Part shown: one piece after another, positions 4,180-22,817 of the stretch | How the letters are laid out: every line of letters begins with the position of its first letter | How positions within the stretch are numbered: the first letter of the stretch is position 1 | IMG/VR virus record: IMGVR_UViG_3300017782_000149 | Location: 1 to 28,449 of that record | Source: a virus | Direction: 5' to 3' (one strand) | Length of the DNA stretch: 28,449 bases | The notes under the pieces: model-generated | Database searches by the model: none | Told to the model about the DNA's origin: nothing | The model's input: the letters and a program-made list of their open reading frames with translations, nothing else | Translations under genes and position numbers: made by a program

Positions 4180-7100
4180 TGGGACAACTTGTAGCTATAG
4201 TACAGGGTGGAACAACGCAGTATGAGCTAGACCTGCCTGATACGCCAATTGAATTAAACTTTCAGTTTCAAGACCTAGGCAATCCTCTAGCTTCTAAATC
4301 GCCGTATACGTTTAATTTCAATTTGCCGCCATCGCGGAACAACGTACAGTTCTTTTCTTACTACTACGATTACAACGTTACGTTAGGCACATTTAAGGCA
4401 CAGACAAAAACATCCGTGCAGTTGTATAGCGAGGGCATTTTGCTAATGCAAGGCATACTACAATTACACAAAGCTGATGCGCAAGGATTTCAGGTCAATG
4501 TATTACAGGAACTTGCTGAGTTGTTCCAAGGTGTGCGTAATCTTTCGTTTGAAGAATTGTTTATTACTGAAGCCGGAACAATTGATACAGACCTTGACCA
4601 TGCATTGACATGGACAAACATAACTAATTCTTGGAGTACAGGAAACGACATTACAACAGGTTCTGTAGGTGATGGGGTTATTGTATATCCGTTGTCAGAT
4701 TGGGGACAAAGTTCAGTGTTTAATCAAAATGAAGACACAGGAAACGGTTTTGTATTTGCCGTAACTAACGGTGTCCCAAGCGGGATAGGAACATCTACAG
4801 GATCGGGCGCACTAGAAGCAAGGAATTTTAAACCTGCTATACGCATACAGTATTTGATTGACTACATTTTTAAACGTGTAGGAATCAACTACGAAAGCAC
4901 ATTTTTTGACAGTGAAGAGTTCAAAAAAATTTACATGTTTCTTGCTTCAGAAACTGAGCGAGTTACAAGCCGTGCAACGTACGGTTTTCGTGTAGGCATA
5001 CCAAGTGCGCAAACAATCACTGCGGCAAACGCAGGTATTTATCAGCAGTTAAATTTTACGGTTGAAAGCACTAGCCCGTTTTATGACCCTGACGGCTTAA
5101 TGTCGGGCGGTACATTTACTGTGCCATTTGACGGCAGTTATTTATTTACTTTTCGACTTATTGTAGCTGTACAAACAGTTACAAGTTTTGCATCATACAA
5201 CACGTACTGCAGAATCTTAGTTGACGGTGAAGCCGTATACTTTACTAATTACGTGCCGTGTGACCCCTCGGAAACTATGGTCTGTGACTATCAAGTATTT
5301 GTAAATCTTACTGCAAGCAGTCAAGTTAAAGTTGAGTTTTCGCACACGAATACATTTGACAGCGTTACTGTTATTCCCACAAATTCTACAGGCACAACAT
5401 TTTGGCATTTATTAATGTACGATGCTACAGAGGGTTTTGTTGATGTGTCAGCAAATTTTCCTGACATAAGTGTAGATGAGTGGTTACGAGCAATATTTGA
5501 AAAGTTCAATATCGTACTAGTCACAAAGCCAACCGATCCGAGTATAGTTTACGCAGAACCGTGGGCTAATTGGTGGAGCGCAGGAACAACACGTAAAGAC
5601 TTTACAAATAAGGTTGATGCAGATAGCATTTTAATTGAGCCTACGACAAGGTTTCAGGTAAAAGAATACACGTTTGAAGATGGAGAAGGCGATGATTTTT
5701 TAAATAAATACTATCAACATCGTCATCAAAAAACATTCGGCAGATACGTTTATGACAATGACAAGGATTTTGTTACAGGCAAAGAAAAATCAAGCGACAT
5801 TTTTCAACCGCTGAGGTTACGCAAAGTTTTTCAAAATATGCAGGGTACAGGCGAAAGCCTAGTGCCTAACGTGTTATTGCCTGCGTTTTGGGATTGGCAC
5901 GACGGAAGCGATGCATCAATATATCACAAGGAAACCGTTAGCTGCAAGCCTGTAATAGCGTATTACCTAGGATTGCAAAACATTGGAAACGGTCACACAT
6001 TTAATTTTGGCGGGAGTAACTACGCAACATATCCATATTTTACAGAATACAATACGGTTGGGGTAACTACTAGTACAAAATCATTACAATGGGGTTACAG
6101 CTATCCTGACAATTTAGAAGCACCGTTTGTTGGTAACGGTGATACTCCGGGTATAACAAATAAATACTTATTCAATACGTATTGGCTGCGTATGTTTAAT
6201 GAGTTGTACAGCGAAGAAAGCCGGGTGATGTCATGTAAACTTGATGTATCTACGATTGACGTATACAATTTACAGTTTAATGATCTGCTGTATATAGAAG
6301 GCGCATACTGGCGAATAGTAAGTTTGTCAAACTTTACATTAGAAAATAGCACACTTGCAAACGCACAGTTAATAAAAGTCATTGATGCGCCTGCAGTCAC
6401 AATACAGCAGGACTGCAATCTTATTGTTGATTCATTTAACACAGACGGGACAGTTAATTTTATTGATAGTACAGGGGCGACTGCTACAGCTACAGAACAA
6501 TGCTGCACGGCAAACGGCTTTATATGGTCTGAGTCAAACACAGAGTGTTTTTACCGACCCGGTAGCAACTCTACAGGTAGTCATCCTAATGCTCCTGCAC
6601 CCGGAATAAATCAACCAACTCCGGGTAATACAAACGGAGTGTTACCGGGAGCGCCGGGTACGGAAACAATTACAAGCATATTCTCTTTTAAAAATTCAAA
6701 ACCAATTATTGGTGGTACGTATGAACTGAAATTGTACGCAACAACAACGGGTGCTTCATCAGTTAACGCGACAACTAATGATGGCATATCTGCATTTGAA
6801 GTGCCGATGGACACAATCATGTACATTACGTATGACGTAACAATGATTGAAATTGACGGTTCTGCTGCTAGTGTTGGCGAAGCAAGCAATTTCACAGCGC
6901 GTACTTCAATTGCAAACACGAGAGATTTAGCGAGCAATTCGCCGACCGTACGCAGGGTAGGTGGATCACCGACTGTAATAAATACCGAAAAAGACTCAGG
7001 AGTTACAGCAAGCATTGATACGTCAACAGCGCAGCGAATAGCAGGAGCAGATGCATCTTACAGTGTAGCATGCACGGGTCAGGCAAACGTAACGGCGCAA

Positions 7101-7244
7101 TGGCTTATTACAGCTAAGGTGCAAATACTGCAAATACAAGGCAAAGCTGCTCAAACAGAAACAGAAGCGTATTACAATTTGACTGGCAATGTCAAAATAC
7201 ACGTTAATGATAGCTCAAACACAGCATTAGATTTTAACGGATGA
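4179..7244 (+). CDS. Large tail/baseplate protein (1021 aa), putative host-specificity protein with a C-terminal module behind a Pro/Gly linker
   Basis: TAATG overlap with the upstream gene. It is the largest ORF. A Cys cluster EQCCTANGFIWSESNTECF is followed by the linker GSHPNAPAPGINQPTPGNTNGVLPGAPG and a terminal domain of about 190 aa. Confidence 0.7.
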   Translation: MGQLVAIVQGGTTQYELDLPDTPIELNFQFQDLGNPLASKSPYTFNFNLPPSRNNVQFFSYYYDYNVTLGTFKAQTKTSVQLYSEGILLMQGILQLHKADAQGFQVNVLQELAELFQGVRNLSFEELFITEAGTIDTDLDHALTWTNITNSWSTGNDITTGSVGDGVIVYPLSDWGQSSVFNQNEDTGNGFVFAVTNGVPSGIGTSTGSGALEARNFKPAIRIQYLIDYIFKRVGINYESTFFDSEEFKKIYMFLASETERVTSRATYGFRVGIPSAQTITAANAGIYQQLNFTVESTSPFYDPDGLMSGGTFTVPFDGSYLFTFRLIVAVQTVTSFASYNTYCRILVDGEAVYFTNYVPCDPSETMVCDYQVFVNLTASSQVKVEFSHTNTFDSVTVIPTNSTGTTFWHLLMYDATEGFVDVSANFPDISVDEWLRAIFEKFNIVLVTKPTDPSIVYAEPWANWWSAGTTRKDFTNKVDADSILIEPTTRFQVKEYTFEDGEGDDFLNKYYQHRHQKTFGRYVYDNDKDFVTGKEKSSDIFQPLRLRKVFQNMQGTGESLVPNVLLPAFWDWHDGSDASIYHKETVSCKPVIAYYLGLQNIGNGHTFNFGGSNYATYPYFTEYNTVGVTTSTKSLQWGYSYPDNLEAPFVGNGDTPGITNKYLFNTYWLRMFNELYSEESRVMSCKLDVSTIDVYNLQFNDLLYIEGAYWRIVSLSNFTLENSTLANAQLIKVIDAPAVTIQQDCNLIVDSFNTDGTVNFIDSTGATATATEQCCTANGFIWSESNTECFYRPGSNSTGSHPNAPAPGINQPTPGNTNGVLPGAPGTETITSIFSFKNSKPIIGGTYELKLYATTTGASSVNATTNDGISAFEVPMDTIMYITYDVTMIEIDGSAASVGEASNFTARTSIANTRDLASNSPTVRRVGGSPTVINTEKDSGVTASIDTSTAQRIAGADASYSVACTGQANVTAQWLITAKVQILQIQGKAAQTETEAYYNLTGNVKIHVNDSSNTALDFNG

Positions 7245-7368
7245 AGTATTGGATAAACAGCATAGGATATGGACTGCCTGTAGCAATCCGCTTGACAGTA
7301 GGAAAAAACATTAAGGGTACGGGTATATGGAGGTATTGGTACGGGATTAATGACTTGAATCAAAGCAG

Positions 7369-9204
7369 TTGGAAGAAGCTGAGATTAATATTAAACAACA
7401 GATGGCAGCAGAAGCGAAAGTAAAAATTAAGGGCGAAGAAACCGTAACATCAGCGGCGGAGAGTGCAGGCGATGCGGTAGAGCGTTTAGAGCGCCGTATG
7501 TCAAAGGCAGGCAAAGGCGCAAAAAAAGATTGGGGCGGAATTGGCGATTTATTTAGTCAGTTTTTGCCGCGCGGTTTTCAGCGCACTATTCGTTCGTTTA
7601 AATCTACACAACGTCAAATTGGACGTTTATCGCGTGGTTTCAAATCGCTACGCGGTGCTATTGCCGCTACAGGCATTGGTGCGTTTGTAGTGGCATTAGG
7701 CCTTATTGTAGATAATTGGGACAAAATTAGCGCATCTATTACAGGCGCAAGCGATGCAACAAAAGATGCCGTTACGGAAAGCGAGAAGCTAGTTAAGGCA
7801 AGCAAGGATCAGCTTGATAACATTTCTGCAACGGAAAACATTCTAAAGTTGCAGGGAAAAACGGAAGAGGACATACTGCTAATGCGTATGCAGGGTACAG
7901 ACGAAGCCATTATGCAGCAAAGGATTTTAATAGAAAACCTTAAAAAACAGAAAGACGAAGAAACTGAGGCGGCAGAGCGTGTAACTAATTACACAAAAGC
8001 AATTGTTGGCTTAGTAACATTCCCTCTTGTCGCTGCATTAGGCGCAATTGACACAATTAGTGCAGGTCTAGCGCAACTTGGTGTTTTAGAAGAAGGTACA
8101 AATCTTGCAACCGGATTTGTCGAAGGTATTGCAGGCATGCTCTTTACACCGCCTAAAGAAGTGCAAGAAAAGGCGGATGAATCAATTGAAGCAGCAGAGG
8201 CACAATTACAACGCTTAGAAAATACGCGTGCAGGCTACGCCTTACGTCAACAAGCTAACGAAGAAAAAGAAGCAGAGCAGGCACGCCGTAAAAGAGAACA
8301 GATTGACAAACAGCGATTAGCAGATGAGAAGTTTGTACAGGATCAGTTGCTGAAGCTGCAGCAGGACTACGAAATACGCAGCTTAGAAGATGCTGATGCA
8401 CAAGCTAAGAAGCGGCTTGAGTTACAGTTTAAAGCAGATATGCTTGAATTAATACAGCGCGGTGCTACGTATGATGCATTACTAGCCCTGCAACGTAAGT
8501 ATGAAATGGACGTAGCAGAGATTGACGAAGCCGCTGCACAGCGTAAATCAGATAGGGAGGCGCAACTTTCTGACCAATTATACGAAAGGTCTTTAACTGA
8601 TTTTGAGCGCCAAGAAATGGCTTTAATGGCACAGTATGACCGCATGGTAGAAATGGCGGGAGATAATGCCGAATTGATAGCGCGAATTAACGCTGCGTAC
8701 ATTGAGGACTACGAACAAATTGTACAAGATTCCGCAGACGAAGAAGAAAACATACAGTTGCGTAAAATTGATGCGTTAGTTAATGCAACAAGCGGACTAT
8801 TCCGCACCATGGGTCAATTAGCAGAAGACAATAGTGAGCAGCAAAAGAACCTTGCAATAGCCGATGTATTGCTTAATCAGGCAATGGCTATGGCAGGTGC
8901 TATTCGCGGCGCAACAGATTCAGCAAAAGACCCTATTAGCCTTGCAACGTATATTATAACTATGCTAGGAACGGTATTGGGCAGCTTTGTAGGCGTAAAA
9001 CAAATACTTGATAAAGCAGGTGGTTCGGGTGGTGGTGTTGGTGGTGGTGGTGGCGGTGTAACTAGATCGGGATTTGCAGATAACATGGTTACACCATTGC
9101 CTGCAAGACTCGATACGCCTGATATGCAAGCATACGTTGTACAGTCACAATTACAAGGGCAAAATGCAATGGCACAACAACTTAATAGTAAGATTACGCT
9201 TTGA
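7369..9204 (+). CDS. Tape-measure-like protein (coiled-coil, TM segments, Gly tract)
   Basis: About 600-611 aa (TTG 7369 or ATG 7402). Long charged heptad-like stretches (EAAEAQLQRLENTRAGYALRQQANEEKEAEQARRKREQ) sit beside hydrophobic segments (AIAATGIGAFVVALGLIV) and GGSGGGVGGGGGGV. This is a typical TMP composition. Confidence 0.55.
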   Translation: MEEAEINIKQQMAAEAKVKIKGEETVTSAAESAGDAVERLERRMSKAGKGAKKDWGGIGDLFSQFLPRGFQRTIRSFKSTQRQIGRLSRGFKSLRGAIAATGIGAFVVALGLIVDNWDKISASITGASDATKDAVTESEKLVKASKDQLDNISATENILKLQGKTEEDILLMRMQGTDEAIMQQRILIENLKKQKDEETEAAERVTNYTKAIVGLVTFPLVAALGAIDTISAGLAQLGVLEEGTNLATGFVEGIAGMLFTPPKEVQEKADESIEAAEAQLQRLENTRAGYALRQQANEEKEAEQARRKREQIDKQRLADEKFVQDQLLKLQQDYEIRSLEDADAQAKKRLELQFKADMLELIQRGATYDALLALQRKYEMDVAEIDEAAAQRKSDREAQLSDQLYERSLTDFERQEMALMAQYDRMVEMAGDNAELIARINAAYIEDYEQIVQDSADEEENIQLRKIDALVNATSGLFRTMGQLAEDNSEQQKNLAIADVLLNQAMAMAGAIRGATDSAKDPISLATYIITMLGTVLGSFVGVKQILDKAGGSGGGVGGGGGGVTRSGFADNMVTPLPARLDTPDMQAYVVQSQLQGQNAMAQQLNSKITL

Positions 9205-9215
9205 ATAAACGGCGG

Positions 9216-9223
9216 TATATTGT
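9216..9223 (+). promoter_or_regulatory. TATATTGT box (followed by AAATTGT), 26 nt upstream of ATG 9250; candidate -7/-10-like promoter element
   Basis: It lies in the 45-nt gap after the tape-measure gene. The same TATTG(T/C) core is seen 18-26 nt upstream of three other operon-initial ATGs (23079, 27404, 27846). Confidence 0.3.
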
Positions 9224-9249
9224 AAATTGTACGCAACACGTAAAAAAGT

Positions 9250-9540
9250 ATGGAAAAGAAAAAGTTTAGTTATAACGGTTGGGCAAGCTATGAAACTTGG
9301 CTTGTATCGGTTTGGGAGTTTATTCCCTTGTTTGTGGAATACTACTATGATCGGGAAGCAACACCTGAAGACGTAGACTCTCGAGAAATCGAAGATTTAT
9401 TTATGGAGTATGTCGAAATCCCACGAGGAGCAAGCATTGTGAATGACATGATGACAACCGCCATCAGCCGCATTGACTTTCGTGAAATCGCAGAGCACGT
9501 AGAAACTGACCTGCAAGACATGATTAACGACAACTACTGA
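9250..9540 (+). CDS. Small acidic protein (96 aa), first gene of the acidic micro-ORF array
   Basis: ORF with an A-rich leader. It has an N-terminal W-rich motif NGWASYETWLVSVW and an acidic C-terminal half. Confidence 0.7.
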   Translation: MEKKKFSYNGWASYETWLVSVWEFIPLFVEYYYDREATPEDVDSREIEDLFMEYVEIPRGASIVNDMMTTAISRIDFREIAEHVETDLQDMINDNY

Positions 9541-9782
9541 TGGGTAAGCTAGACCGCGCATTAGACAAAATTACTGTACGGCTACTTGACTCTTTGCGTG
9601 AAGGCGAAGATTATTTTCTGACTGACACGTTTACGCTGTACAAATACGGGGACGGCAGCGGGATTATTGTTGTTGCTTTAGATACGGACGATGACTACGT
9701 AGAAATTTTGCAAGTATTGTACGACGATCGCAGCATTGACTATGAAGTTCTTGACAACTATCTGTATAACAAATACTCTTAA
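9540..9782 (+). CDS. Small acidic protein (80 aa)
   Basis: TGATG overlap with the upstream ORF. 18 D/E versus 8 K/R residues. Confidence 0.7.
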   Translation: MGKLDRALDKITVRLLDSLREGEDYFLTDTFTLYKYGDGSGIIVVALDTDDDYVEILQVLYDDRSIDYEVLDNYLYNKYS

Positions 9783-9787
9783 AACTA

Positions 9788-9850
9788 ATGGGTTTAACTG
9801 ACCGTTCTATTTTGACGTTTAACCCGCTTGAACATATGCGTTACGACTAA
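9788..9850 (+). CDS. 20-codon mini-ORF (MGLTDRSILTFNPLEHMRYD) whose TAA is the TAA of the first junction motif
   Basis: ATG 9788 is in frame to TAA 9848-9850. It fills the only gap in the array, but it is very short, so coding status is uncertain. Confidence 0.25.
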   Translation: MGLTDRSILTFNPLEHMRYD

Positions 9851-9864
9851 ACAAAAGAGATATG
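9848..9864 (+). repeat. Junction motif copy 1: TAAACAAAAGAGATATG
   Basis: Stop-spacer-start motif. Its ATG is the start of 9862-10059. Confidence 0.9.
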
Positions 9865-10059
9865 ACATACGAAATTGAAACATCTGACCGTGATTCTGAT
9901 AAGGTTGCAGACATCATTGATACCTACACGTACCGAGGTGTAGAAAAAGAAGAGCAAACGCGCGATGGTGTTTTGTACACCGTAAACGCGGATGATGATG
10001 AAATTCGTGACTTAGAAAATGCCTTAGATGATGCGCGTGTAGATTGGCACTACTACTAA
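9862..10059 (+). CDS. Small hyper-acidic protein (65 aa)
   Basis: 20 D/E versus 7 K/R residues in 65 aa. The start lies in junction motif copy 1 and the stop in copy 2. Confidence 0.75.
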   Translation: MTYEIETSDRDSDKVADIIDTYTYRGVEKEEQTRDGVLYTVNADDDEIRDLENALDDARVDWHYY

Positions 10060-10073
10060 ACAACAGAGATATG
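10057..10073 (+). repeat. Junction motif copy 2: TAAACAACAGAGATATG (consensus)
   Basis: Its TAA is the stop of 9862-10059. Its ATG is the start of the 44-aa ORF. Confidence 0.9.
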
Positions 10074-10205
10074 AATAGTCAAGAAATAGACACTCTACAT
10101 GAGTTGCTGATGGATTTTCAGAATAATGTACTTGAAGGAGCAATGGGAAGTGCGGAAGATCGAGCTATTTCTCAGGCAATTTCTATTATAGAAGAATACC
10201 TTTAA
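10071..10205 (+). CDS. Small acidic protein (44 aa), absent from the supplied ORF track
   Basis: Hand translation gives MNSQEIDTLHELLMDFQNNVLEGAMGSAEDRAISQAISIIEEYL. It is bounded by junction motif copies 2 and 3. Confidence 0.6.
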   Translation: MNSQEIDTLHELLMDFQNNVLEGAMGSAEDRAISQAISIIEEYL

Positions 10206-10219
10206 ACAAAAAAGATATG
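10203..10219 (+). repeat. Junction motif copy 3: TAAACAAAAAAGATATG
   Basis: Its TAA is the stop of 10071-10205. Its ATG is the start of 10217-10432. Confidence 0.9.
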
Positions 10220-10432
10220 GAATTTGATGACATTATAGATGAGGTGTTAGGTGACATGAACACTAGTCAATCAGAAAACGCTGCGGTCGAGGCGGTTTTA
10301 AATGATATGTACGACCAAATTAAACGGGCATTAGAAAACCTTGCATACGATTATCCAGATGTTGATATGCCTGACGTTTATGATGTTCGTGACGAAATAC
10401 AATCTGACTACTTTGACTCATTGAACATTTAA
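10217..10432 (+). CDS. Small hyper-acidic protein (71 aa)
   Basis: 20 D/E versus 3 K/R residues in 71 aa. The start lies in junction motif copy 3. Confidence 0.75.
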   Translation: MEFDDIIDEVLGDMNTSQSENAAVEAVLNDMYDQIKRALENLAYDYPDVDMPDVYDVRDEIQSDYFDSLNI

Positions 10433-10440
10433 CTTTAGGC

Positions 10441-10457
10441 TAAACAACAGAGCTATG
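10441..10457 (+). repeat. Junction motif copy 4: TAAACAACAGAGCTATG
   Basis: Its ATG is the start of 10455-10718. Here the motif TAA lies 9 nt after the real stop at 10430-10432. Confidence 0.9.
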
Positions 10458-10718
10458 ACTGTATATGCAATAGGCGACGTTATCGAAGAATTCCTGTTGA
10501 GCGATGACTTCTACCACATACCGAATTTTGACACTTATGTAATGGATAAAGATTACATAGAATACCGTGTTGTAGATAATTCATACGATGACATTCGGCT
10601 TATGGAAGATTTTGAAAACGAGTTTAATCGAGAATTTCGAGGGGAGTGGGAGTTAAGCGTTACAGGTGATGAGCAACGTATGGTCATTGCTGCACAATCG
10701 CACATTGACCGCCGATAA
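10455..10718 (+). CDS. Small acidic protein (87 aa)
   Basis: 22 D/E versus 8 K/R residues. It is bounded by motif copies 4 and 5. Confidence 0.75.
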   Translation: MTVYAIGDVIEEFLLSDDFYHIPNFDTYVMDKDYIEYRVVDNSYDDIRLMEDFENEFNREFRGEWELSVTGDEQRMVIAAQSHIDRR

Positions 10719-10732
10719 ACAACAGAGATATG
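10716..10732 (+). repeat. Junction motif copy 5: TAAACAACAGAGATATG
   Basis: Its TAA is the stop of 10455-10718. Its ATG is the start of 10730-10936. Confidence 0.9.
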
Positions 10733-10936
10733 AGTAGAGATATTTTAGTTTATTGGTACAATGAGGATGACGTGAGGATAAGCGTTGACGAGTATGGCTA
10801 TAGCAACATTGACGTTTACACGCACAATAGCGGAACTATTGTAGTAGAAACAAGCGTCGGTATTGCAGACACTATGGATTTCTTTTTGTACTTGGAAGAC
10901 GAATTTGGCAAGGGCAACGTAGAGATTCTTTACTAA
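10730..10936 (+). CDS. Small acidic protein (68 aa)
   Basis: 14 D/E versus 3 K/R residues. It is bounded by motif copies 5 and 6. Confidence 0.75.
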   Translation: MSRDILVYWYNEDDVRISVDEYGYSNIDVYTHNSGTIVVETSVGIADTMDFFLYLEDEFGKGNVEILY

Positions 10937-10950
10937 ACAACAGAGATATG
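10934..10950 (+). repeat. Junction motif copy 6: TAAACAACAGAGATATG
   Basis: Its TAA is the stop of 10730-10936. Its ATG is the start of 10948-11190. Confidence 0.9.
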
Positions 10951-11190
10951 ACTAAAATCGAAAATTCACTGGCTGAGGCTGTAATTCAGGGTTTAGAATA
11001 TTTAATCACACATAAGGGAACGGCGTGGTTTGATGGTAGAGGCGCAGACCCTAAAAGTGTTGTTGCAGAAGTTATGGATGCAATGATGTATGGCGACATT
11101 GATTTGATTGCCGACGTAGCTAATGACAATCAATCGCTTTTTCCTGCCGACATCAGCAGGTATATAGATGAAGTATTTATGCGACTTTAA
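10948..11190 (+). CDS. Small acidic protein (80 aa)
   Basis: ORF bounded by motif copies 6 and 7. D/E-rich (for example MDAMMYGDIDLIADVANDNQ). Confidence 0.75.
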   Translation: MTKIENSLAEAVIQGLEYLITHKGTAWFDGRGADPKSVVAEVMDAMMYGDIDLIADVANDNQSLFPADISRYIDEVFMRL

Positions 11191-11204
11191 ACAACAGAGA
11201 TATG
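11188..11204 (+). repeat. Junction motif copy 7: TAAACAACAGAGATATG
   Basis: Its TAA is the stop of 10948-11190. Its ATG is the start of the 48-aa ORF. Confidence 0.9.
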
Positions 11205-11348
11205 CAGGAACTTAAACGACATTTAATGGAAGCAATTGCTCACTTGGATAGTGCAGCCCTTGAAGCAGAACGAAGCCGCGACACGTTGTTAAGTGACGCT
11301 TTACTTGAAATTATGAACGAGGTGTTTGATATTAAAGACCACTTGTAA
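11202..11348 (+). CDS. Small helical protein (48 aa), absent from the supplied ORF track
   Basis: Hand translation gives MQELKRHLMEAIAHLDSAALEAERSRDTLLSDALLEIMNEVFDIKDHL. It is bounded by motif copies 7 and 8. Confidence 0.6.
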   Translation: MQELKRHLMEAIAHLDSAALEAERSRDTLLSDALLEIMNEVFDIKDHL

Positions 11349-11360
11349 ACAACAGAGATG
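11346..11360 (+). repeat. Junction motif copy 8, 2 nt shorter: TAAACAACAGAGATG
   Basis: Its TAA is the stop of 11202-11348. Its ATG is the start of 11358-11564. Confidence 0.9.
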
Positions 11361-11564
11361 TTAGTAGAAATCGACTACAAGACGATCCAACAACTGCAAG
11401 ACCTTTTCGGTAGAGAGGGTTTGCGCGATGTGGTAGAATACATTGAGAAAACGAATGACCGCATGTTTAACATCGTTAAGATTGACGAATCGTCGCGTTA
11501 CCCTACAGTCGATGATTTCTTTGATGTGCTTGATGACTATAACATTGACTACCGTATTGTATGA
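11358..11564 (+). CDS. Small acidic protein (68 aa), last gene of the array
   Basis: 16 D/E versus 8 K/R residues. Its stop overlaps the protease start (ATGA). Confidence 0.75.
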   Translation: MLVEIDYKTIQQLQDLFGREGLRDVVEYIEKTNDRMFNIVKIDESSRYPTVDDFFDVLDDYNIDYRIV

Positions 11565-12586
11565 GTAAATTAATCGAATTACTTATTGACGAAAACGAAG
11601 ATGCATGGGGCGTAGAGGCAATTAGCCTTGTAAAGTTCCCTGCTATCGAAGAGAATTTTGTGTTCTTTAGCAAGCAAGGCAACACACGCGGAGTAAGCCT
11701 TGCAGCGGTAGATGAAGAGCAGCAGGTATTAGTAGGCGCTGCCCTAATCCCTGATAAAAACATTCCGCGTTACGACGAAGCAACGGACGAGGAATACGAG
11801 GTATTTTTTAGCAAGGAAACAGTGAAGCTTGCATCGGAACTGTACATTAAGCAAAACCGCACTAATGATCACACACGCGAACATCAAGAATCTATTGATG
11901 AGGTCAGCGTTGTAGAAAGTTGGATTGTGGAAGACCCTGATGTAGACAAAAGTAAATTGTACGGTTTAAATATGCCGCAGGGTACGTGGATGGTAAAGGT
12001 TCACGTAGCAAACAATGAGGTATGGCAAGAAGTAAAGGCGGGAAAGCTGCGCGGCTTTAGCATTGAGGGTTATTTTGCAGATAAGTTAGTCAGCAACAAA
12101 AAAGAAGCTGTAGAAACAGAAGAAACGGAAATGAAAGAACCGTGTTGGGCTGACTATGAGCAAATCGGCACAAAGATTAAGGACGGCAAAGAAGTACCGA
12201 ACTGCGTACCTATGAAACAAAGCAAGATGCAGAAGACCTTAAAAAAATTGTGGTTTGCCATTCGTCGTAAGTTTTACAACGAAGTAAGCCTACAAGACGG
12301 AACAGTCATTGCAACAGAAGACGATACGTTGACTGCAGGATCAGCCGTATTTAAGATTGACGAAGAAGGCATGCCTGCAGACATGGACAACGGTAAATAC
12401 ACTACAGAGGCGGGCGTAGAAATGGAAGTGTTTGAAGGCGTACTGACTGAGTACGACGGTGAAGTCAAAGCTGTAGAGGAGAAAGAAGAAGAAGTTGAGA
12501 TGCATAACGAAGTGCAGCATTTAAACGCTATGAAAGTTCGGTACTACAAAGCACTGTTAACTAAACGATACTACGACCGTTACTAA
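11561..12586 (+). CDS. Prohead protease, XkdF-like (Peptidase_S78_2-type) with a C-terminal extension
   Basis: The N-terminus GVEAISLVKFPAIEENFVFF is typical of XkdF-like phage proteases. A PCWADYEQIGTKIKDGKEVPNCVP motif is present. The gene lies upstream of scaffold and capsid genes. Confidence 0.65.
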   Translation: MSKLIELLIDENEDAWGVEAISLVKFPAIEENFVFFSKQGNTRGVSLAAVDEEQQVLVGAALIPDKNIPRYDEATDEEYEVFFSKETVKLASELYIKQNRTNDHTREHQESIDEVSVVESWIVEDPDVDKSKLYGLNMPQGTWMVKVHVANNEVWQEVKAGKLRGFSIEGYFADKLVSNKKEAVETEETEMKEPCWADYEQIGTKIKDGKEVPNCVPMKQSKMQKTLKKLWFAIRRKFYNEVSLQDGTVIATEDDTLTAGSAVFKIDEEGMPADMDNGKYTTEAGVEMEVFEGVLTEYDGEVKAVEEKEEEVEMHNEVQHLNAMKVRYYKALLTKRYYDRY

Positions 12587-12849
12587 TGAATCCACTAATT
12601 GACCGTATATGGAGTACATGGACGAACAGCGCGCAAGAGGAATTGCTTGCTATGATTGCAGAGTTTCGTATGGACTACATATTAGATGAAACCTTTAATC
12701 ACGCCTTGGATATTGTTGAGGAGGCTATTCTACAAGAAAATTACGACCGTGCAAAAGTAATCTTTACTGAAATGTCGCCTGCCGTATTTACGCGGTTAGA
12801 TTTTGAACTGTTTGTTGAATTACTTGACGAAGCGGTTTACGAATACTAG
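12586..12849 (+). CDS. Hypothetical protein (87 aa)
   Basis: TAATG overlap with the protease gene. Acidic and apparently helical. Confidence 0.65.
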   Translation: MNPLIDRIWSTWTNSAQEELLAMIAEFRMDYILDETFNHALDIVEEAILQENYDRAKVIFTEMSPAVFTRLDFELFVELLDEAVYEY

Positions 12850-12875: not shown

Positions 12876-13421
12876 ATGGATATTAAAAAATTCATGGAAG
12901 AAGAAGAAAAAGAGGACTACATGGTAGAAGAGGAAGAAACCATGCAGCAAGAAGAAGAAGTGACTGAGAGTCCTGACAGTCACGAACAATTTGTAAACCT
13001 TTTGGTAGATATGGGACTGTCTGCCGAACAAGCCGAAGCTGTGCATGAGATGGCAATGGAGTTAGCTGATGCAGGCAACGGTGAAACACAAACACAAGAA
13101 GAAGTGAAAGAAGACAAAAAAGTCGAAACGTCACGACAACGCCGACCTCGACGAGCTATGCGCCGACGTGGTGATTTTAAGCGCAGCGAACGCAGCGAAC
13201 GTCGTGAAATGTCAAGCGAGCAAAAAATGGAACGTCGCTTGCAGCGTTTAGAACGTCAAAATCGTTCTCTACGTAATCAATTGCGTGAATTTGGGGCTGC
13301 ACCTGCTGCACGACCATTGCGAAACGCACCAACAGTAACACAAGAAAATGCTCCTGGGTTTAAGGCTTTGCCTAAATCAACACAGGCAGCTATGGACTTG
13401 ATTAATCAGTATCAGAAATAA
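12876..13421 (+). CDS. Scaffolding-like protein
   Basis: 181 aa, highly charged. The N-terminus is E-rich and the middle is R-rich (RQRRPRRAMRRRGDFKRSERSERRE), with a coiled-coil-like LQRLERQNRSLRNQLRE. It lies immediately upstream of the capsid gene. Confidence 0.6.
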   Translation: MDIKKFMEEEEKEDYMVEEEETMQQEEEVTESPDSHEQFVNLLVDMGLSAEQAEAVHEMAMELADAGNGETQTQEEVKEDKKVETSRQRRPRRAMRRRGDFKRSERSERREMSSEQKMERRLQRLERQNRSLRNQLREFGAAPAARPLRNAPTVTQENAPGFKALPKSTQAAMDLINQYQK

Positions 13422-14476
13422 TGAGTAAATATTTATCACGATCTCGACGTCGAGCGTTTGCAGCACCCCTTGTATCGCCCGATACTACCTATGCCGGAGA
13501 ACGTGCAGCACCTTATGTTGCACCTGCATTGAAATTAGCAAAAACGCTAACGGAAGGTTGGGTACGTCAGGTTGACGGCATACAAAACAAAGCAGTAATT
13601 TCTAGCTTGTCATCTACAGGCGTAGTTAAAAACGCTGCATGCGACTATACGTCAACTGATAGCTTGACACTTGGTGAGCGCGTACTTACACTGTCAGATT
13701 TGACGGTTATGGAATCGCTATGCCGTGGAACATTGTTGCCTACATGGGCAGGGATGACGGGCGCACGTCAAGATATGTCTGCAGGTAACCCTGAGTTTGT
13801 ACAATTTTCATTGGCTACAATTGCAGGATACGCTGCACAAGACGTAGAGAACGGAATTTGGAAAGGCATGGACTTGACAACTGACGTTACAGGCTTCCTG
13901 TCTGACGATGCTACGTTTGACAACACAGGATACCGTGCATCTATTTTGGCTGCAGGCGGTACAACTGGATCACCTGTGGCTGCTGAGAAGATTATCTCAT
14001 CAGGCGGTTTCAGCGCAACAAATAGCCAAATTTTGGGTACTACAGGTTGTTTTCACGAAGCATACAACCAAGCGTTGACATCATGTCCTGCAATCTTGAA
14101 TCGACCTGACATTGCGTTCTACGTGTCGCCAAAAACAGCAGGTAATTTCATGCAGGCGTTGGGTCAGTCAGGCAGCAATCAGGGTGTTAATACACAAGGT
14201 GTAAATCAAGCGTTTGCTTCAATTCAATACTTGGGTATTCCAATTCACGTATGCCCCGGTATGTTTAATGATGCAATCATTTTGACGTACGAAGATAACT
14301 TGGTAGTTGGTTCTAACTTGAACACTGATTACACAAATGCTGCGTACATTGATGCTTGGAAATACGACGGTTCAGACAACGTAAAAATTACTATGAAGTT
14401 TGGACTGGGCATGCAGGTAGGCATTCCCGGCGATTGCGTTGTAGGTGCATTGACTGGTGTAATTACTGACCAATAA
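13421..14476 (+). CDS. Major capsid protein (HK97-fold expected)
   Basis: 351 aa, following protease and scaffold with a TAATG overlap. Size and position are typical of a major capsid protein. No close motif was verified. Confidence 0.7.
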   Translation: MSKYLSRSRRRAFAAPLVSPDTTYAGERAAPYVAPALKLAKTLTEGWVRQVDGIQNKAVISSLSSTGVVKNAACDYTSTDSLTLGERVLTLSDLTVMESLCRGTLLPTWAGMTGARQDMSAGNPEFVQFSLATIAGYAAQDVENGIWKGMDLTTDVTGFLSDDATFDNTGYRASILAAGGTTGSPVAAEKIISSGGFSATNSQILGTTGCFHEAYNQALTSCPAILNRPDIAFYVSPKTAGNFMQALGQSGSNQGVNTQGVNQAFASIQYLGIPIHVCPGMFNDAIILTYEDNLVVGSNLNTDYTNAAYIDAWKYDGSDNVKITMKFGLGMQVGIPGDCVVGALTGVITDQ

Positions 14477-14485
14477 TAGTGTAAC

Positions 14486-15010
14486 ATGGCATGTGATCTT
14501 TCAAGCGGACGGGTAGTTGACTGTAAAGATTCAGTTGGCGGCATTAAAACGGTATACATTGGTAACTATGCAGACATGCCTTCCGGGGCAGATTGGGCTG
14601 CAGCTTCCAATGACACAGTAACGGCTATTACGGCTCAAACCTTTTACCAATTTGATGTGCGACCTGAAACTAGCAGTTTGACCGTAAGCTTTCAATCTGA
14701 TCCTGCCGCAGGCACTACGTTTTTTGAGCAATCACTTAGCGTTACATTTCAAAAGCTAGATGCTACTGATATTGAAGACATTCGCGTTCTGTGTCAAGGA
14801 CGACCCAATATTTGGGTACTTGACAACAACGATAATGTTTTTTTGTTGGGAGCAGTGCATGGATGTAATGTGCAAGGCGGCAGTTTGGTATCGGGTCAAG
14901 GGTTTGGCGATTTGTCGGGTTACACAATTGACTTTGTAGGGCGTGAGGCTAACCCTGTATTCTACGCGGCTGCGCCGTTGTCAGGGGTAACTAACATCAC
15001 AATCCCTTAA
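14486..15010 (+). CDS. Putative major tail (tube) protein
   Basis: 174 aa. The pattern CKDSVGGIKTVYIGNY ... FFEQSLSVTFQKLD ... IWVLDNNDNVFLLGAVHG ... GYTIDFVGRE recalls siphovirus tail tube families of Bacteroidota phages (from memory). It is followed by a strong terminator, as expected for an abundant late product. Confidence 0.45.
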   Translation: MACDLSSGRVVDCKDSVGGIKTVYIGNYADMPSGADWAAASNDTVTAITAQTFYQFDVRPETSSLTVSFQSDPAAGTTFFEQSLSVTFQKLDATDIEDIRVLCQGRPNIWVLDNNDNVFLLGAVHGCNVQGGSLVSGQGFGDLSGYTIDFVGREANPVFYAAAPLSGVTNITIP

Positions 15011-15030
15011 TAATATATGGTTAGAATAGA

Positions 15031-15061
15031 AAGGGGCAGGTCAAATGGCTTGCCCCTTTTT
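15031..15061 (+). terminator. Rho-independent terminator
   Basis: GGGGCAGG (15033-15040) pairs with CTTGCCCC (15049-15056) with one G-U pair. The loop is 8 nt and the tail is T5 (15057-15061). Confidence 0.75.
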
Positions 15062-15074
15062 ACTATAAAAGCAC

Positions 15075-15440
15075 ATGGTACAACTCTTTAAGCAAGGCAC
15101 ACCGCAATACGCGCGGATCAAGTTAGACGGTTACACAGGAACGGGTTACATCTTTGTTACGCTAGAAAATGTTTTGACGGGATACCAAAAAACTGTAACG
15201 CTTAACAATCAGACAACTAATGAGCGCTATACGCAGGTAACAATTCCTATGCAAACGTGGTACAATGATGCTGATTTACACGAAGGTTTTTATACCTTAA
15301 AGCTGACTGACGGAGCTACAAAAACATACGCGGATCGTTTAGCGTTTGTACGTGCTTCATCTAGTTCTAGCTTTACTGAGAGTACGTACACAGCGTACGA
15401 CGACACTGACAATCAAGTTTACGAAGTATACGAGAAGTGA
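15075..15440 (+). CDS. Hypothetical small beta-rich virion protein (121 aa)
   Basis: First ORF after the terminator. Its stop overlaps the portal GTG (GTGA). Confidence 0.65.
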   Translation: MVQLFKQGTPQYARIKLDGYTGTGYIFVTLENVLTGYQKTVTLNNQTTNERYTQVTIPMQTWYNDADLHEGFYTLKLTDGATKTYADRLAFVRASSSSSFTESTYTAYDDTDNQVYEVYEK

Positions 15441-22401: not shown

Positions 22402-22817
22402 TGCGGCACATCGACAAGATAATACTGCACTGCACAGCAACTTTTCCTGACTCCTATGTTACGGTTGGCGTAATTGACAAGCTGCACCGTAAGCGAGGTT
22501 GGAACAACGGAATAGGCTATCACTACCTGATTTACACTAACGGAGAGATACATAAGGGAAGAGACATTGATGTTATAGGTGCGCACGTAAAAGGACACAA
22601 TAAAACAAGCATTGGCGTAGCTTACGTTGGTGGCCTTAACGACAAAGGAGTGCCGACCGATACAATGACAATGAAACAAGAAACATCATGGCTACAGTTA
22701 GTTACAAGTTTGAGAACCGTATTTGGGTATTGCACGGTTCATGGACACAATGAGTTTAGTAGCAAAGCATGCCCTAGTTTTAACGTACAGGATAAGTACA
22801 AATTCTTAAATATTTAA
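22401..22817 (+). CDS. N-acetylmuramoyl-L-alanine amidase endolysin (Amidase_2/PGRP, T7-lysozyme-like)
   Basis: IILHCTAT ... GWNNGIGYHYLI ... GAHVKGHNKTSIGVAYVGG ... HGHNEFSSKACPSF. The Zn-ligand His/His/Cys pattern is present. Confidence 0.85.
   Translation: MRHIDKIILHCTATFPDSYVTVGVIDKLHRKRGWNNGIGYHYLIYTNGEIHKGRDIDVIGAHVKGHNKTSIGVAYVGGLNDKGVPTDTMTMKQETSWLQLVTSLRTVFGYCTVHGHNEFSSKACPSFNVQDKYKFLNI

What the first reader, a model, noticed from the sequence alone, without database searches (positions are those of the whole stretch)
9250..11564. Battery of about 11 hyper-acidic 44-96 aa proteins wedged between tail and head genes: candidate anti-defence / DNA-mimic or ejected-protein set
Ten clear ORFs plus one mini-ORF fill 2.3 kb. 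Counted compositions:
- 9862-10059: 20 D/E versus 7 K/R in 65 aa
- 10217-10432: 20 versus 3 in 71 aa
- 10455-10718: 22 versus 8 in 87 aa
- 10730-10936: 14 versus 3 in 68 aa
- 9540-9782: 18 versus 8 in 80 aa

Many are also Tyr- and Asp-rich. Small, strongly acidic phage proteins include DNA mimics and defence inhibitors such as Ocr, ArdA-like proteins and several anti-CRISPRs (established knowledge). Such genes usually sit in early regions. Here the array lies after the tape-measure gene and, with no terminator visible before 15031, appears co-transcribed with the protease, scaffold, capsid and tube genes. That placement is unusual. It raises the alternative that the products are made late, and might be packaged and ejected with the DNA. 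No function is demonstrated.
Basis: partly seen in the sequence, partly recalled or inferred. Interest (0 to 1): 0.75.

Follow-up and report, generated by a model that had tools for sequence, protein, structure and literature searches.

The report
Shuffled acidic mini-gene cassette array
A marine-type phage carries, right next to its head-maturation protease gene, a row of ten tiny very acidic genes joined by one near-identical 17-base stop-to-start linker; about 40 related phages have the same linker but swap the genes like cassettes, and some also carry a known anti-restriction DNA mimic (ArdA) there, so this is probably a swappable counter-defence toolkit.

Summary
Ten + strand ORFs of 44-96 aa fill 9250-11564.

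Eight consecutive gene junctions are copies of TAAACAACAGAGATATG (stop TAA, 11 nt, ATG). The motif occurs nowhere else in the window.

The exact 17-mer marks arrays in 43 IMG/VR loci from a diverged phage clade (tape-measure about 41% and protease about 55% aa identity). Every array abuts the XkdF prohead protease. In these loci:
- 255 junction-started ORFs fall into 86 sequence families.
- All 237 small ones have pI <5.
- Median dN/dS is 0.14.
- Cassette order is shuffled, and homology breakpoints fall on junctions (91% against 12% at random).

At least 17 relatives encode an ArdA anti-restriction protein in the same island. In one virus ArdA is fused to the protease.

No window ORF matches a known anti-defence family. 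One (9250-9540) is DUF7249.

Best reading: a hypervariable, probably counter-defence or host-interaction cassette array, co-transcribed with head genes. The junction would serve as a Shine-Dalgarno-free restart signal and as a recombination joint. Function and virion packaging remain inferred.

I rate it a new variant of a known kind, interest about 0.78.

The parts
9250..9540 (+). Island ORF 1, 96 aa, pI 4.14. DUF7249 family, predicted five-helix bundle. It has its own A-rich start region, not the junction.
   Evidence: PF23907 scores 32.8 bits against a cutoff of 27. Homologues occur in 14 related loci and 709 in the large protein database. AF2 pLDDT is 84.8. There is no fold neighbour.
9540..9782 (+). 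Island ORF 2, 80 aa, pI 4.06, 17.5% Asp and 11% Tyr. Its start overlaps the stop of ORF 1 (TGATG). In other phages its homologues are junction-started cassettes.
   Evidence: It belongs to cluster 13 and occurs in 6 loci. The AF2 model reached only pLDDT 53.
9789..9850 (+). Possible 20-aa mini-ORF or cassette remnant in the only long non-coding gap (9783-9861). Its TAA is the TAA of the first junction.
   Evidence: Read from the sequence. The gap has no significant RNA structure (z 0.18).
9848..9864 (+). Junction copy 1 (TAAACAAAAGAGATATG, 1 mismatch).
9862..10059 (+). Cassette ORF 3, 65 aa, 20 D/E versus 7 K/R.
   Evidence: It is exchanged as a single unit: in L022 the 94% nucleotide match covers only 9845-10076.
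10057..10073 (+). Junction copy 2 (exact).
10071..10205 (+). Cassette ORF 4, 44 aa, helical, acidic.
   Evidence: It is a single-cassette match in L036, L038 and L041, covering 10057-10222.
10203..10219 (+). Junction copy 3 (2 mismatches).
10217..10432 (+). Cassette ORF 5, 71 aa, 20 D/E versus 3 K/R. Near-orphan.
   Evidence: It has no homologue in the 43 related loci and one representative among 1.84 billion proteins.
10441..10457 (+). Junction copy 4 (1 mismatch).
10455..10718 (+). Cassette ORF 6, 87 aa, 22 D/E versus 8 K/R.
   Evidence: It has one distant homologue, in L037.
10716..10732 (+). Junction copy 5 (exact).
   Evidence: It is unstructured as RNA.
10730..10936 (+). Cassette ORF 7, 68 aa, 14 D/E versus 3 K/R. 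Singleton family.
10934..10950 (+). Junction copy 6 (exact).
10948..11190 (+). Cassette ORF 8, 80 aa. Singleton family.
11188..11204 (+). Junction copy 7 (exact). Homology with the closest relative, L050, resumes here.
11202..11348 (+). Cassette ORF 9, 48 aa, helical hairpin. Its family occurs in 8 loci.
   Evidence: Its family (cl5) is the only one with a profile-level relative (cl27, 90.5% probability).
11346..11360 (+). Junction copy 8, shortened (TAAACAACAGAGATG).
11358..11564 (+). Cassette ORF 10, 68 aa. Its stop overlaps the protease start (ATGA).
   Evidence: It is 97% identical to the L050 copy.
11561..12586 (+). XkdF-type prohead protease with a long acidic, scaffold-like C-terminal part and a basic tail. 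It is the conserved anchor gene of the array.
   Evidence: PF14550, E 3.4e-16. The array lies immediately before or after this gene in every locus that holds both.
7369..9204 (+). Tape-measure-like protein. It is the upstream border of the island.
   Evidence: phrog_24676, E 1.2e-6. It is conserved in 32 loci.
15017..15060 (+). Strong intrinsic terminator. It probably ends the transcription unit that contains the array and the head genes.
   Evidence: dG -26.4 kcal/mol, z -4.55.

Best explanation
Region 9250-11564 is one instance of a clade-wide, hypervariable gene-cassette array. The array is embedded in the head-morphogenesis operon of uncultured tailed phages, distantly related to Nonlabens phage P12024 and with a probable Bacteroidota host.

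Shown:
- Each cassette is one small (about 45-110 aa), strongly acidic protein gene.
- Each is bounded by the near-invariant 17-nt junction TAA-ACAACAGAGAT-ATG.
- The cassettes are real genes under purifying selection.
- They belong to at least 86 families with no detectable mutual homology.
- They are gained, lost and reordered as whole units, with breakpoints on the junctions.
- The array always sits against the XkdF prohead protease gene.

Inferred, mechanism of the junction. It does two jobs.
1. It is a compact, unstructured, Shine-Dalgarno-free termination-reinitiation signal. It has A at -6 and at -11 to -13, as Bacteroidia ribosomes prefer. This would make any incoming ORF expression-ready on the polycistronic late mRNA.
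2. Because it is identical at every boundary, it serves as a short-homology joint. Recombination between co-infecting relatives then swaps, deletes or inserts whole genes in register.

Inferred, function of the products. They are accessory host-interaction proteins, most probably inhibitors of DNA-targeting host defences of the DNA-mimic type. The reasons are that the island is hypervariable, uniformly acidic and, in many relatives, carries ArdA.

Inferred more weakly. The proteins are made late with the head proteins. At least some may be loaded into the procapsid and delivered with the DNA.
For: Junction:
- Eight copies lie in the window against 0.22 expected, and none elsewhere.
- The exact 17-mer gives arrays of 3-11 copies in 43 IMG/VR loci.
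- In 596 Gb of cellular genomes it gives only chance-level singletons plus one short, probably mis-binned contig.
- Conservation starts exactly at TAA and ends at ATG. The flanks are unconserved.
- It stays invariant although cassette dS is 0.1-2.7 and core proteins are only 41-61% identical.
- 199 of 255 ORFs stop on the TAA of the next junction.
- It is unstructured as RNA.
- It has A at -6 and -11 to -13, which are positive determinants in Flavobacterium johnsoniae (PMC6847099).
- The phage lacks Shine-Dalgarno sequences: 2 of 33 non-array genes have one.

Cassette behaviour:
- There are 86 families, 30 of them singletons.
- Only 1 of 561 profile-profile pairs is related.
- The order is shuffled among loci.
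- The closest relative, L050, matches 7000-9782 and 11182-12085, but ORFs 3-8 are replaced. Single cassettes match alone in other loci.
- 91% of homology endpoints lie within 5 nt of a junction, against 12% at random.
- L013 and L060 differ by a one-cassette indel bounded by junctions. Their identity switches from 88% to 99.9% at a junction.

Function:
- All 237 small cassette proteins have pI <5. The mean is 21.8% D/E and 7.1% K/R, with controls.
- ArdA (PF07275) is above threshold in island proteins and is present in at least 17 loci.

Timing and packaging:
- The array is always adjacent to the protease, on either side of it.
- In many loci the junction directly precedes the protease gene.
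- There is no terminator until 15017.
- A protease-ArdA fusion occurs in the same virus assembled from two samples. A protease-cassette fusion occurs in L044.
Against: - No window ORF matches any known anti-defence or DNA-mimic family.
- The window itself has no ArdA.
- The structure test was largely uninformative: ORF 2 reached pLDDT 53, and the DUF7249 model has no neighbours.
- Function therefore rests on guilt by association and on composition.
- The junction has G at -3 and -5, where this phage's other genes are G-poor and where A is optimal. It is therefore not simply the best start region, and something else, such as a binding factor, may constrain it.
- Seventeen nucleotides is short for classical homologous recombination, and no recombinase was identified in this partial genome.
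- Breakpoints at gene borders are also what selection for intact genes would leave behind.
- Late expression is inferred from operon layout only. Bacteroidota-type promoters could not be mapped.
- There is no shared N-terminal targeting peptide.
Confidence: 0.55

Rival explanations
1. Capsid-loaded, injected 'internal proteins', as in the T-even Ip proteins or the P1 Dar proteins. The acidic proteins are made with the head proteins, enter the procapsid through association with the protease/scaffold, and are ejected with the DNA to act before any phage gene is expressed. This refines the best explanation rather than excluding it.
For: - The array lies inside the head module, directly before or after the prohead protease.
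- It is translationally coupled to the protease.
- ArdA is fused to the protease in L017/L019. An 80-aa cassette is fused to the protease in L044 by loss of the junction stop.
- The last residue is biased: Y, F, L, I or V in 72% of cassettes, with Tyr at 26-30% against 7.5% in the background. The protease and ORF 12586-12849 also end in Tyr.
- Precedent: the T4 proteins Ip1-3 are packaged, injected and each block a different GmrSD variant (PMC12373910).
Against: - There is no conserved N-terminal capsid-targeting peptide or recognisable cleavage motif.
- The fusions are seen in one virus each and could be assembly or sequence artefacts.
- The L017 fusion has lost the basic C-terminal tail of the protease.
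- The C-terminal bias may be a nucleotide preference next to the junction (positions -1 and 0).
- Acidic cargo next to packed DNA is electrostatically unfavourable, whereas T4 internal proteins are basic (my own knowledge).
Confidence: 0.25
2. Host-takeover or nucleoid/transcription modulators rather than anti-defence proteins. On this reading the acidic mimics titrate host DNA-binding proteins such as HU-like proteins, RNA polymerase factors or nucleases like RecBCD, in order to favour replication and packaging late in infection.
For: - The acidity and small size are the same as for the best explanation.
- The late-operon position suits a role during DNA packaging.
- DUF7249 also occurs among small accessory genes of a 164-kb T4-like phage contig.
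Against: - A conserved host target would not demand 86 unrelated families with this much presence/absence turnover.
- The one annotated member of the island, ArdA, is an anti-restriction protein.
Confidence: 0.12
3. Ordinary head- or tail-assembly helpers (chaperones, scaffold-like acidic fillers) that merely look exotic because they are small.
For: - They lie between the tape-measure and protease genes.
- Scaffold proteins are often acidic, and a conserved acidic 87-aa ORF (12586-12849) sits next to the scaffold gene.
Against: - Assembly factors are conserved with their partners. Here ORFs 5, 7 and 8 have no homologue in 43 related phages that share the same capsid, protease and tape-measure genes.
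- Arrays range from 3 to 11 cassettes in any order.
Confidence: 0.05
4. The junction is chiefly a regulatory operator. It would be the binding site of a phage or host RNA-binding protein or small RNA that switches translation of the whole battery on or off (compare T4 RegA). Cassette shuffling would be a side effect.
For: - The conservation is near-perfect over 17 nt and includes positions (C-10, C-7, G-5, G-3, T-1) that are not known start-site determinants and are atypical for this phage's other genes.
- For cluster K mycobacteriophage start-associated sequences, the authors likewise left open a host- or phage-encoded binding factor (PMC3203893).
Against: - No candidate binding protein was identified.
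- This reading does not by itself explain why breakpoints and single-cassette indels coincide with junctions.
Confidence: 0.2

Closest known systems
T-even phage internal protein (ip) loci (T4 Ip1, Ip2, Ip3 and the variable ip genes of relatives)
   Same: - Both are variable sets of small non-essential proteins encoded with late or head functions.
- Each T4 Ip blocks one variant of a restriction system and is injected with the DNA (PMC12373910).
- Here too there is a hypervariable locus next to the prohead protease, and it holds an anti-restriction gene in relatives.
   Different: - Ip proteins share an N-terminal capsid-targeting signal. No shared N-terminal motif exists here.
- Ip proteins are basic (my own knowledge). 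These proteins are all acidic.
- The ip loci are not known to have an invariant stop-start junction.
- Virion presence is not shown here.
ArdA / Ocr-type DNA-mimic anti-restriction proteins
   Same: - They are small and strongly acidic.
- True ArdA homologues (PF07275) occupy the same island in at least 17 related phages.
   Different: - None of the ten window ORFs matches ArdA, Ocr or any other named mimic.
- ArdA and Ocr are classically expressed first after DNA entry (my own knowledge). Here ArdA sits between the prohead protease and scaffold genes, and in one virus it is fused to the protease.
Start-associated sequences (SAS) of cluster K mycobacteriophages
   Same: Both are short, asymmetric, highly conserved sequences lying immediately upstream of the start codons of many small genes from different families. 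Both are specific to one phage group, sometimes include the upstream stop codon, and have been suggested to act in translation or as a binding site (PMC3203893).
   Different: - SAS contains a Shine-Dalgarno core and is scattered through the non-structural half of the genome.
- This junction has no Shine-Dalgarno core (the host type ignores such sequences), always includes the stop codon, and tiles one contiguous array inside the head operon.
- It coincides with recombination breakpoints.
Integron gene-cassette arrays
   Same: Both are one-directional arrays of promoterless single-gene cassettes, delimited by a repeated site, with free gain, loss and reordering.
   Different: - There is no attC-like inverted repeat. 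The junction is 17 nt and unstructured.
- No integrase was seen in the window.
- Exchange would have to use short homology rather than site-specific recombination.
Phage anti-defence / accessory-gene islands (anti-CRISPR loci, hyperplastic regions, the small-gene block gp50-59 at the same slot in Nonlabens phage P12024S)
   Same: - Each is a fixed genomic slot filled with variable small genes of unknown function.
- P12024S has ten small genes and a DNA methyltransferase between its tape-measure-like gene and its protease.
   Different: - The P12024S block is on the opposite strand and has no junction motif.
- Its proteins have mixed charge, pI 4.05-9.2.
- Anti-CRISPR loci are marked by aca regulators, which are not seen here.

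Membership tests
ArdA (PF07275) | Sequence match to the ArdA profile above Pfam's gathering score, for the ten ORFs of the window. | tested here: not met
   There is no ArdA hit for any window ORF at E <= 1. tblastn with two ArdA-like island proteins finds nothing in the window.
ArdA (PF07275) | Sequence match to the ArdA profile above the gathering score, for island proteins of related phages. | tested here: met
   The scores are 51.7 bits (L061, 244 aa), 40.3 bits (L034, 248 aa) and 35.8 bits (L017, 544-aa protease fusion), against a cutoff of 27. Homologues occur in at least 17 loci. The only PDB hit is ArdA 2w82, and it is weak (E 0.49), on the YxDYxxxGRDLxxSG motif.
ArdA (PF07275) | Inhibits type I restriction-modification enzymes by mimicking DNA. 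| not testable with these tools
   This needs restriction-alleviation assays.
DNA-mimic proteins in general (Ocr, AcrIF2, AcrIIA4, Gam and others) | A small protein with a large net negative charge. | tested here: met
   The window ORFs have pI 4.05-4.7. All 237 small cassette proteins of the clade have pI <5.
DNA-mimic proteins in general (Ocr, AcrIF2, AcrIIA4, Gam and others) | Surface carboxylates arranged like the phosphates of B-DNA, or a fold match to a known mimic. | tested here: inconclusive
   The ORF 2 model reached pLDDT 53 and is unusable. The DUF7249 model (pLDDT 84.8) has no significant match in PDB or BFVD; the Gam hits have E > 7.
T4-type internal (injected) proteins | A shared N-terminal capsid-targeting sequence that is cleaved by the prohead protease. 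| tested here: not met
   N-terminal positions 2-12 of the 87 small (<=130 aa) family representatives analysed show no conserved residue. There is no nucleotide conservation after the ATG.
T4-type internal (injected) proteins | Presence in the mature virion and ejection into the host. | not testable with these tools
   Only indirect hints exist: the position next to the protease and two protease fusions.
Start-associated sequences (cluster K mycobacteriophages) | A short, asymmetric sequence specific to a phage group, lying directly upstream of the start codons of many unrelated small genes. | tested here: met
   The definition is taken from PMC3203893.
Start-associated sequences (cluster K mycobacteriophages) | Contains the Shine-Dalgarno core AGGAG and matches the consensus GGGATAGGAGCCC. 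| tested here: not met
   The junction is ACAACAGAGAT with no GGAG. The phage as a whole lacks Shine-Dalgarno sequences.
Integron cassette array | attC recombination sites (structured imperfect inverted repeats) between cassettes. | tested here: not met
   The junction is 17 nt with no inverted repeat. The fold energy is -1.5 to -3.4 kcal/mol with z near 0.
Integron cassette array | An adjacent tyrosine-recombinase integrase. | tested here: inconclusive
   No integrase was found among the window proteins scanned. The window is only part of the genome, and not every ORF was scanned.
DUF7249 (PF23907) | Profile match above the gathering score (ORF 9250-9540 only). | tested here: met
   The score is 32.8 bits against a cutoff of 27. 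The N-terminal YNGW.NYETW motif is conserved in 120 aligned homologues.

The most novel reading that the evidence does not exclude
These phages run an integrase-free, integron-like cassette system. A single invariant 17-nt stop-restart junction makes any small ORF both expression-ready on a Shine-Dalgarno-blind ribosome and exchangeable in register by short-homology recombination. The phages use the system to stockpile a rapidly reshuffled arsenal of DNA-mimic defence inhibitors, ArdA included. These are produced with the head proteins, ride into the procapsid with the prohead protease, and are injected ahead of gene expression.
Probability: 0.15. Interest if true: 0.9.

Novelty: new variant of a known kind. 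Interest (0 to 1): 0.78.

Why it matters
If the reading is right, it matters in three ways.

1. It gives a sequence-defined handle, one 17-mer, for harvesting hundreds of candidate anti-defence proteins from uncultured marine or estuarine phages of Bacteroidota. That host group's phage-defence biology is almost unexplored. Already 86 families are in hand, nearly all without any annotation.

2. It shows a way in which phages may organise accessory genes as true cassettes without an integrase. This bears on the old question of whether conserved 'boundary sequences' guide phage mosaicism.

3. It places ArdA, classically a first-expressed protein, between the prohead protease and scaffold genes, and once fuses it to the protease. 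That makes the idea of pre-loaded, injected DNA mimics directly testable.

The junction is also a natural, compact translation-restart element for organisms that ignore Shine-Dalgarno sequences, which could be useful for Bacteroidia genetics.

Tried and rejected
- Nucleotide search of 9000-12000 against 50,697 GenBank phages found no match.
- PHROGs, Pfam and NCBIfam on the ten ORFs gave only DUF7249/phrog_871 for ORF 1. Everything else was at noise level.
- Pfam and PHROGs on 88 family representatives gave only DUF7249, one DUF3846 and five unknown-function phrogs.
- PDB sequence searches for six window ORFs gave nothing below E 0.2.
- Word-indexed homologue searches for ORFs 1 and 2 gave 3 close hits each.
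- An exhaustive HMMER search for ORF 5 found 1 representative.
- The AF2 model of ORF 2 with a 4-sequence alignment reached pLDDT 53 and was unusable.
- Foldseek of the good DUF7249 model against PDB and BFVD gave no significant match.
- I tested the idea that all cassettes are diverged paralogues of one fold, suggested by recurrent C-terminal 'G[YF]xV' endings. hhalign all-against-all on 34 family alignments found only one related pair, so common ancestry is not demonstrable. The alignments are shallow.
- Searches for a Bacteroidota-type promoter (TTTG-N17-23-TAnnTTTG, or TAnnTTTG alone) found nothing enriched or well placed. The sigma-70 scan was at or below shuffle level.
- Host or prophage identification with the 17-mer in 185,579 genomes gave chance-level singletons. 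There were 64, against about 70 that I estimate from 596 Gb, two strands and 4^17. The only other hit was one 5-kb contig binned with a Pseudomonadales MAG, which is most likely mis-binned.
- The junction is not an anti-Shine-Dalgarno pairing site: it contains no GGAG-like core (read from the sequence).
- I rejected a general proteome acidity effect.
- I rejected non-coding or spurious ORFs (dN/dS 0.14).

Full report
**1. What is in the window**

All genes of the 28.4-kb window are on the + strand. Recognisable genes are:
- a terminase large subunit at 5-1015 (PF17288/PF04466);
- a tape-measure-like protein at 7369-9204 (phrog_24676, E 1e-6);
- an XkdF-type prohead protease at 11561-12586 (PF14550);
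- a capsid protein at 13421-14476;
- a weak portal match at 15437-17440, an amidase at 22401-22817 and NinG at 25726-26139.

The closest cultured relatives are Nonlabens (Persicivirga) phages P12024S and P12024L. The protease is 44% identical and the capsid protein 23%. They share the unusual gene order.

Only 2 of 33 non-array genes have a Shine-Dalgarno-like motif. Their upstream regions are A-rich and G-poor. This is the pattern of Bacteroidia (PMC6847099). A Bacteroidota host is therefore inferred, not shown.

**2. The observation**

Ten ORFs of 44-96 aa tile 9250-11564. All ten have pI 4.05-4.70. Small proteins in the early region of the same window are basic, with pI 8.7-10.1. The acidity is therefore local to the array.

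No credible terminator lies inside or after the array until a strong hairpin with a T-run at 15017-15060 (dG -26.4 kcal/mol, z -4.55). The last array ORF overlaps the protease start (ATGA).

**3.

Eight successive gene boundaries are copies of TAAACAACAGAGATATG. This is the stop codon of one gene, an 11-nt spacer and the start codon of the next. Four copies are exact and four have 1-2 mismatches; in the last, the spacer is 2 nt shorter. Chance would give 0.22 copies. The motif occurs nowhere else in the window.

**4. The motif defines a clade-wide array**

- An exact-match scan of IMG/VR returned 67 loci. Of these, 43 carry 3-11 copies (allowing up to 3 mismatches) spaced about 150-300 bp apart.
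- These loci are related to the window but well diverged. Median aa identity is 41% for the tape-measure protein, 55% for the protease and 61% for the capsid protein.
- In 596 Gb of bacterial and archaeal genomes the 17-mer gives 64 singletons. My estimate of the chance level is about 70. The only array is on one 5-kb contig binned with a Pseudomonadales MAG, probably mis-binned. The arrays are therefore a phage feature and are not found in prophages of sequenced species.
- Across 195 unique junction contexts, conservation begins exactly at the T of TAA and ends at the G of ATG. There is no conservation on either side.
- 199 of 255 junction-started ORFs stop on the TAA of the next junction, and 250 of 255 use TAA.
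- Conserved neighbours (protease, scaffold, ArdA) use ordinary A/T-rich start regions instead.

**5. Cassette behaviour**

- The 255 junction-started ORFs fall into 86 BLAST clusters, 30 of them singletons. No family is present in more than 13 of the 44 arrays.
- Profile-profile comparison of 34 families finds one related pair among 561.
- Family order differs freely between loci.
- The closest relative, L050, aligns with the window over 7000-9782 and again from 11182, which is junction 7. ORFs 3-8 are replaced there by other cassettes.
- ORF 3 alone recurs in L022 (match 9845-10076). ORF 4 alone recurs in L036, L038 and L041 (match 10057-10222). Each match is bounded by junctions.
- Over all array pairs, 91% of homology endpoints lie within 5 nt of a junction, against 12% for random points.
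- L013 and L060 differ by one cassette, inserted or deleted between two junctions. Their identity jumps from 88% to 99.9% at a junction. That is a recombination breakpoint on the motif.
- The cassettes are real genes. Median dN/dS is 0.14 in 27 families, with dS of 0.1-2.7. The junction stays unchanged over the same divergence, so it is itself under strong constraint or is constantly homogenised.

**6. Uniform acidity**

All 237 cassette proteins of 130 aa or fewer have pI <5. The median pI is 4.05, with 21.8% D/E and 7.1% K/R.

After removing duplicates, 164 of 164 have pI <5. Among 81 other small ORFs of the same loci, 35% have pI <5 and 48% have pI >8.

Because the families are unrelated at profile level, the acidity looks like a shared functional requirement rather than shared ancestry.

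The last residue is Y, F, L, I or V in 72% of cassettes. Tyr accounts for 26-30% against 7.5% in the background. This could be a protein signal, or a nucleotide preference next to the junction.

**7. Position**

In 21 loci the order is tape measure, array, protease. In 9 others it is tape measure, protease, array, small acidic ORF, scaffold, capsid.

The array therefore always touches the prohead protease and lies within the head-morphogenesis operon. In many loci the junction itself is the start region of the protease gene.

**8. A known anti-restriction protein in the island**

Acidic proteins of about 240 aa next to the protease in related loci match ArdA (PF07275), at 51.7 and 40.3 bits against a cutoff of 27. 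Homologues are present in at least 17 loci, usually directly after the protease.

The only PDB sequence hit of the L061 protein is ArdA 2w82. It is weak (E 0.49) and falls on the YxDYxxxGRDLxxSG motif.

In L017 and L019, which are the same virus at 99.96% identity assembled from two samples, the protease and ArdA form a single 544-aa ORF. This ORF lacks the usual basic C-terminal tail of the protease and ends on another junction.

In L044 the junction after the protease is shortened to CAAGAA and the stop codon is lost. This fuses the protease to an 80-aa cassette protein.

The window itself has no ArdA.

**9. The window proteins themselves**

ORF 1 (9250-9540) is DUF7249. The family has 709 homologues. 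It also occurs among the small accessory genes of a 164-kb T4-like contig.

Its AF2 model is confident (pLDDT 84.8) and shows a small helical bundle. It has no significant neighbour in PDB or BFVD.

ORF 2 could only be modelled at pLDDT 53.

ORF 5 is a near-orphan, with one representative among 1.84 billion proteins. ORFs 5, 7 and 8 have no homologue in any related locus.

Pfam, PHROGs, NCBIfam and PDB sequence searches gave nothing else.

**10. Mechanism**

*Shown:* the region is an array of single-gene cassettes with an invariant stop-spacer-start junction. Gene content is shuffled with breakpoints at the junctions. The genes are under purifying selection, the proteins are uniformly acidic, the array is anchored to the prohead protease gene, and ArdA lies in the island in relatives.

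*Inferred, junction as start signal:* the junction is a termination-reinitiation element for Shine-Dalgarno-blind ribosomes. It is unstructured. Counting the A of ATG as 0, it carries A at -6 and at -11 to -13, and the stop codon itself supplies part of that A-run. These positions enhance initiation in Flavobacterium johnsoniae.

However, it has G at -3 and -5. Those positions are suboptimal or atypical. Its near-perfect conservation also exceeds what start sites normally show. A second constraint is therefore likely.

*Inferred, second constraint:* one option is use of the junction as a short-homology recombination joint, supported. Another is a binding site for a regulator, as was left open for mycobacteriophage start-associated sequences.

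*Inferred, product function:* the products are host-interaction proteins, most probably inhibitors of DNA-targeting defences of the mimic type.

*Weaker inference:* they are made late, and at least some are loaded into capsids.

**11. Comparison with known systems**

- **T-even internal-protein loci** are the nearest functional analogue. They are variable, small, packaged proteins, and each blocks one GmrSD variant. They are defined by a shared N-terminal targeting signal, which is absent here.
- **Start-associated sequences of cluster K mycobacteriophages** are the nearest sequence-feature analogue. They contain a Shine-Dalgarno core and are dispersed rather than tiled.
- **Integrons** share the cassette logic but not the attC sites or the integrase.
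- **Nonlabens phage P12024S** has a block of small genes in the same slot. It is on the other strand, has no junction, and its proteins have mixed charge.

I found no paper describing this array.

**12. Verdict**

The anti-defence reading is plausible and now has one concrete support, ArdA in the homologous island. It remains unproven for the window's own proteins. The packaging idea is open.

I rate the finding a new variant of a known kind, namely hypervariable phage accessory or anti-defence islands and start-associated repeats. Its distinctive features are the invariant stop-restart junction, the uniformly acidic cargo, and the placement against the prohead protease.

Noticed in passing
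window 15017-15060: There is a strong intrinsic terminator (GGGGCAAGCC/GGCTTGCCCC stem followed by TTTTT; dG -26.4 kcal/mol, z -4.55) after ORF 14486-15010. The consensus scan missed it.
   Followed up: yes
window 12586-12849: An 87-aa very acidic ORF (pI 4.05, ends in ...VYEY) lies between the protease and scaffold genes. Unlike the cassettes it is conserved, in 21 related loci. It occupies the slot where other relatives carry ArdA. It could be a head-assembly factor or a fixed member of the island.
   Followed up: partly
window 7241-7423: A 60-aa highly basic ORF (pI 10.9) overlaps the end of the 1021-aa gene and the start of the tape-measure-like gene. Similar basic ORFs of 57-78 aa sit at the same place in relatives (L022, L034, L053, L061, L064). 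Its function is unknown.
   Followed up: no
window 1-21100 (whole layout): The gene order is unusual: terminase, then large tail-like genes and the tape measure, then protease, scaffold and capsid, then portal. The portal therefore lies about 14 kb from the terminase. Nonlabens phage P12024S (L001) shares this order.
   Followed up: partly
related loci L006, L031, L034, L038, L041, L042, L056, L062 (e.g. L062 oriented 12016-12834): A 268-273-aa protein rich in T, G and V, and beta-like, is carried as a junction-bounded cassette inside eight arrays. It has only sub-threshold Pfam hits (Lip_A_acyltrans 20.8 bits, Gp18_dom_I 15 bits). It looks structural rather than mimic-like and is not explained.
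   Followed up: partly
all arrays; window C-termini at 9538, 10057, 10934 and others: The last residue of cassette proteins is strongly biased to Tyr, Phe, Leu, Ile or Val (72%; Tyr 26-30% against 7.5% in the background), often preceded by Arg. The protease and ORF 12586-12849 also end in Tyr. It may be a protein signal or a nucleotide preference (T/A then C/T) just before the junction.
   Followed up: partly
L134 8001-8267 (NCBI GCA_046463975.1, 164-kb contig): DUF7249, the family of window ORF 9250-9540, also occurs in a T4-like large phage contig. It lies in a run of small genes next to homing endonucleases and nucleotide-metabolism genes.
   Followed up: no
L100 (JAFMIA010000163.1, 4977 bp): This is the only array found in 'cellular' genomes. 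It lies on a short, low-coverage contig binned into a Delaware Bay Pseudomonadales MAG, and one DUF7249 homologue is labelled Pseudoalteromonas. Both are probably binning artefacts, but they are the only host hints that point away from Bacteroidota.
   Followed up: no
L057 (one cassette, 84 aa): One cassette family matches DUF3846 (E 2.3e-13), another uncharacterised domain. Apart from DUF7249 it was the only clear Pfam domain hit among the 88 family representatives (the 272-aa cluster-4 cassette gave only a sub-threshold Lip_A_acyltrans match).
   Followed up: no
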